Shown: positions 59,801-64,000 of the stretch, piece by piece
How positions within the stretch are numbered: position 1 is the stretch's first letter
How the letters are laid out: each line of letters starts with the position of its first letter
NCBI RefSeq assembly: GCF_025028335.1
Contig: NZ_JAFEUW010000001.1
Span: forward strand, 2,356,001 to 2,420,000
DNA length: 64,000 bases
Origin: Brachybacterium sillae
GTDB lineage: Bacteria; Actinomycetota; Actinomycetes; Actinomycetales; Dermabacteraceae
Direction: 5' to 3'
Position numbers: made by a program

Positions 59801-62800
59801 GAACTCCCCGTCGGCGGCGCGGTCCCCGGGCATGACGTACTCCTGCAGCCAGCGGCCGTTCACGAATCCGAACAGGTCGTCCTGGGGACGGATGGAGGGA
59901 TCCGACCAGGACAGGTCGAGGCCGGAGCGGGGGGTCGGGACGGAGGTGATCATGCGTGGGGTCCTTCAGACGGGAGGGTGTCGATCAGAGGGCGCCGGCG
60001 CCGGCGGCGGGCAGGGTCAGCGCCAGGACCAGCAGCAGGAGGCCGATGGCCGCGGGCGCCCAGGCCCAGGGGGAGGCGGGTCGCTCGGCCGGGGCGTGGC
60101 GATGGAGGATCAGGGTGGCCAGCCCCGAGCCGAGGGACAGCACGATCGTGGCGACGGTCATCACCGGGGCCGTCGCGACCAGCACGCTCGCACCCAGCTG
60201 GAAGCAGATCACCGCCACCACGTCGACCACGCGCATCGCCGCGACCCGGGCGACACCGGTGCGGTCGGCGAGCATCGCCATCACCGTCTCCTCCCCCCAG
60301 GCAGAGGGCCGTGCCAACCGCTTGCGGGTGAGGACCGTCTGGATGGTCGCGAGGATGCCCCACACGGTCGCTGCACCGACACCCACCCACAGGCCGAGGG
60401 GGCCACGGGCGTCCGTCGGCCACAGCACCAGCGCCAACAGAACCGCCGCCAGCCGCAACACCTCGTCGACGACAGAGCGGGTGACCAGCACCCGCAGCCC
60501 GTCGGGCCGGACACCGGGGGCGCGGGTCAGCAGCGCCGCGGACAGGCCCAGCGCCGCGATCTGCAACGCCCCCAGCGCGATGCCGATGAACAGCACCGCG
60601 GGGGAAGACGGCGTGGCGGCGAGGGCCGCCATCATCGTCACCAGCACTAGGGCGGGAAGCACCAGAGCGACCACGCTGAGGGCGCGCACCAGGCCGCGCA
60701 CCACCTCGGCGCCGGTGCGCGGATGGTCATGACCGCTGTGGTCGTGGGGATCACCGCTGCTGCAGCAGGCGGCGGTCGTCTCGGGGGCAGGGGTCGTCAC
60801 ACGGTCTCCTTCGTCGACCGCCAGACTACCGGCGTGGGACGATGGGAGGCATGGATGTGGTGGTGCCCCCGGGGGATGCGCTGCGCTCAGTGAGGGGCGT
60901 GCGAGAGCGTGCGATCGGCAGCGCCCTGGCGGCCGCCGTCGGGGACGCCCTCGGAGCGCCCTACGAGTTCCTGGCGCCGATCCCGGCGACGGACGACGTC
61001 GACATGGTCGGAGGTGGCCTGCTCGGGTGGGCCGAAGGGGAGTGGACCGACGACACCGCGCTGGCGGTGGTGGTGCTGCGCGCGGCCGTGGACGCCCCGG
61101 GGCGGCCCCTGACCGACGAGACGGTCCTGGATGCGATCGCCGCTGGATGGTTCACCTGGTCCATCGGCGCCGCCGACATCGGCGTGCTGACCTCTGCGGT
61201 GATGCGGCGCTCCGGGGAGCTCGCCGCGGCGTCCGGGCGCGCCGTGCCCGCGGCGACGGATCTGCGCTGCGCGGCGCAGGAGGTGCATGAGCAGCTCGAC
61301 CGCTCCGGTGGCAACGGTGCCCTGCTGCGGGTCCACGCCGGGGTGCTGCCCGCGCTCGCCGCGGAGGATGACGTGCTCGAGGAGTCGGTGCTGGCGCTGT
61401 GTCGCCTCACGCACACCGATCCCGAGGCGCAGGAGGCCTGTGTGCTGTGGGGTTTCGCGGTGCGCGAGGCCATCCTGACGGGCCGTCTGGATGTGCGCAG
61501 CGGCCTGGAAAGGCTGCCCGAGGAACGTCGGGACGTGTGGTGCGAGCGTCTGGCCCGCGCGGAGGCCTCCGATCCCGCGGAGCTCGGACGCAATGGGTGG
61601 GTGGTGCGGGCGCTGCAGGCGGCCTGGTCCGCGATCCATCGCGCCGGCCCCGTTCCCGAGGGACGTTTCGCGCAGCGCGCCTGGCTGGTGGACGTGCTGG
61701 ACGCCGCGGTGCGCTCGGGGTTCGACACCGACACCGTCAGCTGCATCGCAGGGTCCCTCGCCGGGGCCGCGGTGGGCCCCGGTGCGGTGCCGCCGGAGTG
61801 GCGCCGCGACCTGCACGGGTGGCCCGGGTACGACGCCGATGATCTGGTGGCGCTGGTGCAACGGGCTCTGCCCGCCGACGCCGAGGACATCCCCGGGCGC
61901 ACCTCGAGGACATCGCCCGGAGGTCCCGAGAGCGAGGAGGCCGGGAGATGACCCGCACGCCCTGGCACCTGCGGGTGCTGAGCTGGAACGTGTGCGAACT
62001 GCGCGGTGACGTCGACGCCCTGGTCGAGGCAGTCCGAGCGGTCCGCCCGGATGTGCTGCTTCTGCAGGAGGCCCCGCGCCTGGTGCTGCCGCAGATGCGG
62101 TTGGAGCGGTTCGCGCGGCGCGTCGGCCTGCGGGTGCTGCAGGGGGACGTTTCGGCCGCGGTCTGGCGATCCTCGCCACCGACGATGTGGCCGCGCGGGT
62201 GGTCCGCCGCGGCATGGAACCGGTGGCGCAGGTGCTGTCGGATCCCCAGGCGGTCTACCCGCGGGGGATCGCGGCCGTGCGTCTGTCGGTGCCCGGTGGT
62301 GGGCAGCTCATGGTCTCGACGATCCATCTGGCGCTGCAGCAGGACAACCGGGTGACCCACGCCCGTGAGGCGGTGGAGCGCGTGCGCCGCGCAGGCTGCC
62401 CGGTGGTGATGGGCGGGGATCTCAATGAGACCGCCGACGGGCCCGCCCGCCGGATCCTCGACGAGGTGCTGCGCGATCCTGCGGAACCGACGGAGCACAC
62501 CTTCCCCGCAACCCGGCCGCGGCGTCGCATCGATGCGGTGCTGGTCACCCCCGGCCTGAGGGTGCGGACGGCGCGGGCACTGCGCTCCGCCCCGGGAGTT
62601 CCCGCGGCGCGGATGCGCACCGCTTCGGATCACCTGGGCACAGTGGTCGACCTCGACATCTGACCCTCCCCCCCACGTCGAGGGGTCGATCCGCCCCGCA
62701 TCCCGCGGTCGACCGCCCCCTCGAGCGGATGGCCCGGGGCCAACCGTGATGCGCGGGACGCGTTCGCCGACTGCGGACAGCCACCCATAACGGTTGAAAA

Positions 62801-64000
62801 CTTAAAGAAAAGCGGGCATGCTAGCAGCATGACAACCATGACCGAGGGCATCGACTGGCACGTGTTCAACGCCACGGCCTCGGGGCGCCCGCCGCGCCGC
62901 ATCATCTCCCGCGCGATCGCCGCGGCCGGTGGGGACCGGCCGGGTCGCGTGGCCCTGGACATCGGCGCCGGCGGTGGATCGGACGCCCTGGAGTTCGTGC
63001 GGCACGGCTGGACGGTGCACGCCTACGACATCGATGACACCCTCGCCTCGCGTCTGGTGGAGAACGAGCGCATGGCGGGGACCCTCCGCTTCCATCACAC
63101 CGACGCCACCACCGTGGAGCGCTTCCCGACCGCGGACGTGCTCTATTCCGGCCATGCCCTGCCGATGTTGGGCCCGGAGGGTCTGGCGCAGACCTGGCCG
63201 CGGCTGGTCGACGCCCTGCGACCCGGGGGGATCGCCGCGGTGGACCTGTTCGGTGATCGCGACACCTGGGCCGATCGCGACGACATCGCCACACTGGATC
63301 AGCGGCAGATCGACGAGATGTTCCGCGGATTCTCCGTGCTGCACCGGGAGGTGCGCGACGAGGACGGCCGCTCCTGGGTCGGCAAGAAGCACTGGCACAT
63401 CATCACGGTGCTCGCCCGCAAACTCTGATCCGCGTGCCCCTCGGCCCCGCCCGTCGCCGGCGGGGCAGAAGCGGTGGGCAGACGACAGAGAGTCAGGGGT
63501 CAGCGATCAGCTCGGTGCGCCGCGCAGGCGTTTGACGAGGATGTCGCTGCCGCCGACGACGATGCCGGTGCGGGTGAAGCCCTCCGAGAGGTACAGCACC
63601 ATCGCGGTGGTGTTCTGCGGTTCGACACTGAGGCTGACCCGCTCCACGCCCCGCTCGATCGCCTGATCGGTCAGCGCCTGCAGAAGCGCCCGACCGATCC
63701 CGCGGCCGCGGGCCACTGGATCCAGGCCGATGGTCAGCTCGGGGACGTCCTCCTCCAGATACCCGTACCCGGGGTCGGTGAACGGCAGATACCGCAGCCA
63801 CGCGGCTCCGACGTCGCGACCCCCGAGGGAGGCGACCACTCCACCCTGGTCTGGGGTCCACCCCTCCACGTAGTGGGACAGTTCGGGGACTGTGCGCACA
63901 TCCGAGCGCGCACGCATCGTGTTCCAGTTCGCGGCATGGTCGAGCATCTCCCACAGGAAGGGGACGTCCTCGGCGCGGGCGGGGCGGATCACCGGGCGAT

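What a model noticed while it worked through the whole genome (the two positions that open the first line are those of the whole stretch)
62214..63428. Mycothiol users kept, mshA-mshB deleted and no Ino1: predicted salvage of a mycothiol precursor
Relatives have an mshA-like/mshB-like pair between the orthologues of g02201 and g02202; here it is gone, Ino1 is absent from the whole genus, yet MshC, Mca, mycothione reductase and MscR are whole. The cell likely salvages GlcN-inositol or mycothiol conjugates from neighbours and re-cysteinylates them. Mycothiol cross-feeding would be a new way of holding this thiol.
Evidence so far: Locus comparison G353, G350; 175-bp gap here. MshA model: no hit here, 10 of 12 congeners hit below the cut; Ino1 0 of 12 congeners, 6 of 8 other families; best MshB-model hit here is Mca. 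MshC, Mca, Mtr, MscR pass NCBIfam cuts. Search 126 listed nothing on salvage.
(Added by a program. Inside this text positions count along the whole contig: contig position 2,356,001 is position 1 of the stretch shown here. "Call 12" and the like, gene names such as g00115 and contig names such as C1 are that model's own, and its searches are not shown. The text may have been shortened before it was handed on; [...] marks where a part breaks off. The agent that wrote the report below was given it as the finding of a first reader that could run no searches.)

Follow-up and report, generated by a model that had tools for sequence, protein, structure and literature searches.

The report
Likely natural mycothiol scavengers lacking MshA
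This Brachybacterium, like eight other genomes from several separate lineages of its order, has lost the gene for the first step in making the antioxidant mycothiol but keeps genes that finish, use and recycle it, so it likely takes up mycothiol or its sugar core from outside, a dependence known for glutathione but not found described for mycothiol in nature.

Summary
Confirmed: the mshB-mshA pair of relatives is cleanly missing from a 165-bp gap (62664-62828), and no remnant or substitute was found in the genome. MshC, Mca, Mtr and MscR are whole. Ino1 is found in 1 of 68 genomes of the family, so its absence is not special here: 51 of 54 congeners keep MshA without it.

New here: mshA was lost at least three times in the genus and again in two other families. 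Eight other genomes keep intact mshC, mshD and mca, and the lineages tested show no faster evolution of them. Genomes with neither MshA nor MshC mostly lack Mca too (63 without, 4 with).

Best reading (0.5): uptake of mycothiol or GlcN(Ac)-inositol, recycled through Mca, MshC and MshD. Rivals: decay (0.27), an inositol-free thiol (0.15), an unseen substitute enzyme (0.08).

Limits: no importer or donor was identified. mshD is frameshifted here; it resembles six other same-sense one-base breaks, which suggests an assembly error, but no reads were available. Mycothiol import by laboratory mutants is in print (title seen only). The scan's earlier notes did not hold this pattern.

The parts
60842..61951 (+). 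ADP-ribosylglycohydrolase-family gene; conserved left anchor of the locus
   Evidence: PF03747, E 7e-37; same position in G001, G032, G051, G061 and others
61948..62663 (+). Endonuclease/exonuclease/phosphatase (EEP) gene, left neighbour of the deleted pair; split by a frameshift at the G run 62142-62146
   Evidence: PF03372; two tblastn pieces in different frames against the G001 protein, 66% and 63% identical
62664..62828 (.). 165-bp gap where relatives carry mshB-like and mshA-like on the minus strand; only the methyltransferase-proximal part (about 62760-62828) is ancestral
   Evidence: no consensus promoter or terminator found
62829..63428 (+). Class I SAM-dependent methyltransferase, right neighbour; transcribed divergently from mshA in relatives; no shown link to mycothiol
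   Evidence: PF13649; close orthologue (57-69%) in 51 of 54 congeners, mostly next to the mshA-like gene

Best explanation
This genome has lost mshA and mshB but keeps mshC, mca, mtr, mscR and a frameshifted mshD, and it likely holds a mycothiol pool by importing mycothiol, its disulfide or conjugates, or the GlcN(Ac)-inositol core from outside. Shown: the gene losses, the genes kept, their intact motifs and their normal rates of change. From established biochemistry: Mtr keeps the pool reduced; MscR uses the thiol as cofactor; Mca frees GlcN-inositol from spent conjugates; MshC and MshD rebuild mycothiol from it. That loop needs neither MshA, MshB nor Ino1 once the core is inside the cell. 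Inferred and untested: that an importer exists, which molecule it carries, that other actinobacteria are the source, and that mshD is whole in the living strain.
For: (1) Recurrence. mshA is missing with mshC, mshD and mca kept in G000, G032, G051 (no mshB), G017 (mshB kept; deletion seen inside a contig), G149 and G329 (mshB-like kept), and G214, G230 and G262. Trees separate G000 from G032+G051 and from G017; with two other families that is at least five losses.
(2) Persistence. G032 and G051 are deep sisters (UFBoot 99; 0.24 + 0.34 substitutions per site on neighbouring genes) and share the deleted block and a downstream asparaginase gene found in no other fetched locus. Their pN/pS is 0.21/0.57 for mshC and 0.33/0.62 for mshD, like full-pathway pairs (0.19/0.45 and 0.34/0.55 for G007-G011). 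mshC branch ratios are 1.04 (G000), 0.72 and 1.37, against 0.72-2.10 in the other 14. G230 keeps MshC, MshD and Mca in 1.5 Mb.
(3) Control. In 301 genomes of the order, 63 lack MshA, MshC and Mca together, and only 4 keep Mca alone, so these genes do not simply linger.
(4) Active site. The MshC residues named in PMC9736012 (C43, C231, H256, T46, T83, H55, KMSKS) are present in G000, G032, G051 and G017.
(5) No shared substitute among the GT4 glycosyltransferases compared; no gshA or gshB found with E. coli queries.
(6) One mechanism also covers genomes with users only: G061 keeps Mca, Mtr and MscR with no MshA-D.
(7) Literature: Mca-to-MshC recycling of GlcN-Ins (PMC6178380); mycothiol import by M. 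smegmatis (title only).
Against: No importer was identified; the mshC, mca, mtr, mscR and mshD neighbourhoods read in G000 hold ordinary genes and no candidate importer. mshD is frameshifted in this assembly. About 2% of genes are broken (4 of 217), so an error in this very gene is unlikely beforehand, and a real fresh pseudogene would look the same. For G000 alone the date of the loss is unknown, so normal rates could predate it. Losing the first committed step first is also what selection to switch off a costly pathway would give. G000 and G051 MshC depart from otherwise invariant columns at 6 and 10 of 150 sites, against 0-3 in eight controls and 7 in one. The five genomes outside the family keep Ino1, which fits an unseen de novo route as well. 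No thiol has been measured in any of them.
Confidence: 0.5

Rival explanations
1. The pathway is dying: the deletion of mshA-mshB was recent, mycothiol is no longer held, and the remaining genes are relics, mshD being the next to break.
For: mshD frameshift. Small genome for the genus (2.67 Mb against mostly 3-4.9 Mb). Five genomes of genus g2 have lost all four synthesis genes, a possible end state. mshA and mshB go in one deletion, whereas mshC and mshD need separate events.
Against: Seven breaks seen in this assembly, mshD included, all shift the frame in the same sense (one base short), six of them in G/C runs, as homopolymer undercalls do. Both halves of mshD still match the model (69.6 and 130.3 bits). 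mshD is whole in the eight other mshA-less, mshC-keeping genomes. No rate increase in mshC or mshD. Fully mycothiol-less families lack Mca (0 of 18, 0 of 17).
Confidence: 0.27
2. MshC would ligate cysteine to free glucosamine or another amino sugar, and MshD would acetylate it, giving an inositol-free analogue such as AcCys-GlcN that Mtr, Mca and MscR use; no import needed.
For: Des-myo-inositol mycothione is a known substrate of mycothione reductase (PMC8883573 passage). Mca and MshB deacetylate free GlcNAc, weakly (PMC4267739). mshB is kept in three mshA-less genomes. The family has no Ino1, and its MshA has family-wide changes in the acceptor pocket.
Against: mshA mutants of M. tuberculosis lose 83% to all detectable mycothiol and null mutants need catalase (PMC2628429); the passages I read name no such analogue. 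It does not explain genomes with users only (G061). No telling change was seen in MshC motifs.
Confidence: 0.15
3. A non-orthologous glycosyltransferase makes GlcNAc-inositol(-phosphate) from imported or home-made inositol, and Mca stands in for MshB.
For: Mca has weak deacetylase activity and an mshB mutant of C. glutamicum still makes some mycothiol (PMC4267739). The five mshA-less genomes outside the family keep Ino1. Two GT4 genes of G000 (one at window 11010-12203) had no match in the loci compared.
Against: None of the 12 GT4 proteins of G000 has the MshA acceptor motif. The only one shared with G214 and G230 is GlgA/GlgM. Those shared with G032 or G051 also occur in G007 or G061. The window GT4 lies beside a glycoside hydrolase among IS elements. 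Other glycosyltransferase families were not tested.
Confidence: 0.08

Closest known systems
Mycothiol biosynthesis and recycling of Actinomycetota (Ino1, MshA, MshA2, MshB, MshC, MshD; Mca, Mtr, MscR)
   Same: MshC, Mca, MscR and Mtr (by NF005884) pass curated cut-offs; MshC catalytic residues are present; Mca-MshC-MshD recycling of GlcN-Ins is established.
   Different: Ino1, MshA and MshB are absent, so the known de novo route is closed; mshD is frameshifted in this assembly.
Mycothiol import by Mycobacterium smegmatis (Bzymek et al. 2007, PMID 17644601)
   Same: By its title, import of mycothiol by an actinobacterium. Recalled, not read: mshA and mshC mutants load mycothiol from the medium, and it lasts longer when MshC is active.
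   Different: Laboratory mutants of a producer, against natural and repeated loss here. I know of no named importer, and none was found here.
Glutathione auxotrophs with importers (Streptococcus pneumoniae GshT-TcyBC, Haemophilus influenzae GbpA-DppBCDF, Lactococcus lactis)
   Same: They use the thiol without making it (PMC4360819 passage); the same logic fits G061-type genomes.
   Different: Different thiol. Here the last two synthesis steps are kept, which points to recycling of a scarce sugar core. Mycothiol is described as apparently confined to actinobacteria, so the donor would be another bacterium, not an animal host.
Inositol auxotrophy of the ino1 mutant of Mycobacterium tuberculosis
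   Same: Outside inositol rescues loss of Ino1 (PMC2834668 passages); a model for the MshA-keeping congeners that lack Ino1.
   Different: It still needs MshA, so it cannot explain this genome.

Membership tests
De novo mycothiol producer | MshA glycosyltransferase | tested here: not met
   Best TIGR03449 hit 139.7 bits (cut 462.5) is GlgA/GlgM; no acceptor motif
De novo mycothiol producer | MshB deacetylase | tested here: not met
   Only Mca and an unrelated 920-codon PIG-L protein hit
De novo mycothiol producer | Ino1 inositol-phosphate synthase | tested here: not met
   PF01658: no candidate in G000; 1 of 68 in the family
De novo mycothiol producer | MshC with Zn ligands, HIGH and KMSKS motifs | tested here: met
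   511.8 bits, cut 485.1; residues present
De novo mycothiol producer | Intact MshD | tested here: inconclusive
   Two pieces in different frames; error-like context; no reads to decide
Mycothiol user | Mca, MscR and mycothione reductase | tested here: met
   Mca 421/277, MscR 607/513, Mtr NF005884 600/501; Mtr is below the TIGR03452 cut
Mycothiol user | Mycoredoxin and mycothiol S-transferase | tested here: inconclusive
   A crude CxxC pattern scan gave no credible mycoredoxin; no family model was run for either
Thiol auxotroph that imports its thiol | Users kept, entry step of synthesis lost, state persistent | tested here: met
Thiol auxotroph that imports its thiol | A dedicated importer | tested here: inconclusive
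   None beside the mycothiol genes; sugar-porter hits in 3 of 5 genomes, none in G061 or G230; no model for a mycothiol importer to search with
Thiol auxotroph that imports its thiol | Thiol in cells only when supplied from outside | not testable with these tools
   needs feeding and LC-MS
MshA (for the gene of relatives) | TIGR03449 score above the cut-off | tested here: not met
   270-335 bits for full-length matches, cut 462.5; sub-cut-off MshA is also the only form in three Ino1-bearing families
MshA (for the gene of relatives) | Closest solved structure, acceptor-site residues and co-occurrence with mshB-D | tested here: met
   C. glutamicum MshA E 8e-66; HTSP..DxGGMN, K78 and R154 equivalents kept, Y110 to H in 31 of 32 and T134 to S in 32 of 32 (residue roles recalled); in g2 present exactly where MshC and MshD are (2 of 2; absent 5 of 5)

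The most novel reading that the evidence does not exclude
Mycothiol is a shared good among actinobacteria. Several lineages have become graded dependents: first on outside inositol (the whole family lacks Ino1), then on the GlcN-inositol core (MshA lost, MshC and MshD kept), then on whole mycothiol (only Mca, Mtr and MscR kept), through an importer still to be found. Alternatively, the mshA-less lineages make an inositol-free analogue that has not been seen in nature.
Probability: 0.35. Interest if true: 0.8.

Novelty: new variant of a known kind. Interest (0 to 1): 0.6.

Why it matters
Mycothiol is treated as something each actinobacterium makes for itself. Natural strains that keep only the second half of the pathway would show that it, or its sugar core, passes between species. 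They are also ready tools for finding a mycothiol importer, for which my searches found no named gene. The loss series (Ino1, then MshA/B, then MshC/D, then Mca) gives strains for each step and a simple feeding test. If the cells instead make an inositol-free thiol, that is a new natural redox buffer. Either way, the presence of mshC or mca should not be read as mycothiol synthesis.

Tried and rejected
Idea that divergent, sub-cut-off MshA marks loss of Ino1: rejected. Families f8, f11 and f20 have only sub-cut-off MshA and carry Ino1 in 18 of 18, 18 of 18 and 17 of 17.

Idea that the second PIG-L gene (contig 1,771,588, beside a sugar ABC transporter and a carbohydrate kinase) replaces MshB: not supported. 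It is a 920-codon frame scoring 36 bits on the Mca model, with no counterpart hit in G032, G051, G058 or G061.

Reads for the mshD break: no run was listed, which is no evidence. No second assembly of the species turned up by protein search (best other hits 60% and 64%) or by an exact DNA scan of metagenomes (0 matches).

Importer search by neighbourhood and by PF00083 gave no shared candidate.

The GT4 comparison is near complete for G032, G061, G214 and G230 and partial for G007, G017, G018, G051, G149, G262 and G329; other glycosyltransferase families were not searched.

Ergothioneine, bacillithiol, GshF/GCS2-type and inositol-catabolism genes were not searched. Six of 242 alignments with an internal stop were not examined.

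Nine further MshA-negative, MshC- and Mca-positive genomes of the order sample were dropped: G026 has mshA at the locus and eight are 62-94% complete. G185 and G249 (MshA-like score, no MshC, no Mca) were not examined and may be counter-examples to 'mshA goes first'.

Vetting 2008 and Bzymek 2007 are not held. The scan's earlier notes gave only the opposite pattern, mshA/B without mshC in other phyla, and nothing for this genome, its relatives or these words.
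Full report
1. Setting. The window is G000:C1:2356001-2420000 of a 2.67-Mb genome, 71% G+C, 99.99% complete, in two contigs. The closest named MshC relatives are Brachybacterium (63-66%).

2. G001 has ADP-ribosylglycohydrolase, EEP, then mshB-like and mshA-like on the other strand, then a methyltransferase. Here EEP ends at 62663 and the methyltransferase starts at 62829. Two motifs upstream of the methyltransferase in 4 of 4 aligned relatives survive at 62762 and 62793; nothing of mshA or mshB does. Genome-wide, the best MshA hit is a GlgA/GlgM-type synthase, the best MshB hit is Mca, and the MshA acceptor motif is absent. MshC, Mca and MscR pass their cut-offs; Mtr passes one of two models. 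mshD lies in two frames.

3. The lost genes are credible MshA and MshB. The G001 proteins are below the NCBIfam cut-offs (305/462.5 and 128.7/224.35). Their best solved relatives are C. glutamicum MshA (E 8e-66) and M. tuberculosis MshB (E 3e-23). The acceptor loop and the K78 and R154 equivalents are kept (residue roles recalled from Vetting 2008, not held). In genus g2 they occur exactly where MshC and MshD occur.

4. Ino1 is a family trait. PF01658 hits 1 of 68 family genomes, 0 of 55 in the genus, and 244 of 301 in the order. 51 of 54 congeners keep the MshA-like gene without it. They must take up inositol, as the M. tuberculosis ino1 mutant can (PMC2834668 passages), or use another acceptor. 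This weakens Ino1 as evidence about this genome, but it does close the known de novo route twice over.

5. The pattern recurs. In the family (68 genomes), MshC is found in 61 and MshD in 62. mshA is missing with mshC and mshD present in G000, G032, G051 and G017. A six-gene tree of 17 genomes makes G032 and G051 sisters (UFBoot 99) inside a clade that excludes G000 (100), and puts G017 among full-pathway genomes. The rpoB tree of 30 also separates G000 from G051. That is three losses in the genus. In 301 genomes of the order, 204 have MshA, MshC and Mca, 63 have none, 15 have MshC and Mca without an MshA hit, and 4 have Mca alone. Of the 15, G026 does have mshA and eight are under 95% complete and were dropped. 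The remaining five besides G000 (G149, G214, G230, G262, G329) were searched again with all candidates scored: no MshA, MshD over the cut in 5 of 5, Mca in 5 of 5, an MshB-like gene in 2 of 5. Against this, G185 and G249 have an MshA-like score without MshC; I did not examine them.

6. The kept genes look selected. mshC terminal branches relative to neighbouring genes are 1.04 (G000), 0.72 (G032) and 1.37 (G051), against 0.72-2.10 in the other 14 genomes. For mshD they are 1.95, 2.82 and 1.38, against 1.06-4.65 in ten others; the G000 row includes a short out-of-frame stretch. G032 and G051 both lack mshB, mshA and the methyltransferase and share a downstream asparaginase gene (named from its motif) seen in no other fetched locus, which suggests one old deletion. 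Since their split, pN/pS is 0.21/0.57 for mshC, 0.33/0.62 for mshD and 0.14/0.55 for mca, like full-pathway pairs. pS is near saturation, so this shows constraint but does not measure it. The MshC residues listed in PMC9736012 section 2.3 are present. G000 and G051 depart from invariant columns more often (6 and 10 of 150) than most controls (0-3, one 7).

7. The mshD break. Against relatives' proteins, 3 of 56 and 4 of 217 genes of G000 are frameshifted (overlapping sets). With pip and mshD, seven distinct breaks are known. All are one base short and six lie in G/C runs. That is the mark of homopolymer undercalls. But an error in a given gene has only about 2% prior chance, and real slippage also favours runs. 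No reads or second assembly were found. Undecided; it counts against salvage for this genome only, since mshD is whole in the other eight. An M. tuberculosis mshD mutant still makes about 1% of normal mycothiol (PMC2628429 passage).

8. Substitutes. G000 has 12 GT4 proteins. The only one shared with G214 and G230 is GlgA/GlgM; those shared with G032 or G051 also occur in G007 (full pathway) or G061 (no MshC); two had no match (comparison partial for seven genomes). gshA and gshB were not found with E. coli queries, while the metK control was. No importer lies near the mycothiol genes, and sugar porters are not shared (3 of 5 genomes).

9. Mechanism. Shown: the losses, the genes kept, their motifs and rates. 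Established: Mca cleaves mycothiol conjugates to GlcN-Ins, which MshC and MshD return to mycothiol, and Mtr reduces the disulfide (PMC6178380 and PMC4360819 passages). Inferred: an unknown importer brings in mycothiol, its disulfide or conjugates, or GlcN(Ac)-Ins, and the loop stretches a scarce core. Genomes with users only would import the whole thiol. Odds: salvage 0.5, decay 0.27, inositol-free analogue 0.15 (des-myo-inositol mycothione is a reductase substrate, PMC8883573; Mca and MshB act weakly on GlcNAc, PMC4267739), unseen substitute enzyme 0.08.

10. What is known. Bzymek et al. 2007 report mycothiol import by M. smegmatis; I saw the title in a reference list (PMC8557817), the text is not held, and the details are recalled. 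Glutathione auxotrophs with importers are described. A survey of 100 actinobacterial genomes notes only presence or absence of the pathway in the passages I read (PMC4255298). Ten full-text searches listed nothing on natural mshA-less, mshC-keeping bacteria or on a mycothiol transporter, judged from titles and abstract starts. The library lacks most subscription papers, and I read no supplements, where gene tables could show this pattern.

11. Verdict. It works like thiol auxotrophy with salvage; it is not a de novo mycothiol pathway. New variant of a known kind. Interest 0.6: not shown, but recurrent, apparently selected, and testable by one feeding experiment.

Noticed in passing
L021-L049, L096-L098 (mshA-like genes of the family): The family's MshA has Y110 changed to H (31 of 32), T134 to S (32 of 32) and G230 to A (31 of 32), numbered on C. 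glutamicum MshA; other Ino1-less lineages keep Y and T. With no Ino1 in the family, its acceptor may not be the usual inositol phosphate.
   Followed up: partly
G055, G056, G057, G060, G061 (genus g2); G069 (family f3): No MshA or MshC but Mca kept; the five g2 genomes also lack MshB and MshD, and G061 keeps Mtr and MscR. Candidates for import of whole mycothiol.
   Followed up: partly
L087:7330-7513 (G017): mshA alone is missing between the methyltransferase and an intact mshB with its ribosome-binding site; the genome is 81% complete but the junction lies inside a contig.
   Followed up: yes
order sample, genera g41 and g19: MshA, MshC and Mca present without Ino1 (g41: G119, G137, G204, G252, G323; g19: 5 of 6), so Ino1-less producers recur outside this family.
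   Followed up: partly
window about 40290, 52420, 58065, 62144; contig 844,965, 944,840, 2,003,135: Seven frameshifts, all one base short, six in G/C runs (acyl-CoA thioesterase-like, proline iminopeptidase-like, pepO, EEP, cis-prenyltransferase-like, polysaccharide deacetylase-like, mshD; names partly from recalled motifs): probably homopolymer errors of the assembly.
   Followed up: yes
window 11010-14434: Divergent pair of a GT4 glycosyltransferase and an amylo-alpha-1,6-glucosidase/MGH1-like hydrolase among IS elements, beside what looks like a potassium transporter gene in pieces; no match in the relatives' loci compared.
   Followed up: partly
contig 1,769,515-1,777,177: Cluster of a 920-codon PIG-L domain protein, a carbohydrate kinase and a sugar ABC transporter (kinase and transporter named from recalled motifs); substrate unknown.
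   Followed up: partly
window 54292-57269: ECF-type transporter genes (PF09819 component and fused ATPase-permease) with a leader region that may be a riboswitch.
   Followed up: no
G013:C1:2336267 and G037:C8:13009: A second MshA-like gene (about 240 bits) away from the main locus.
   Followed up: no
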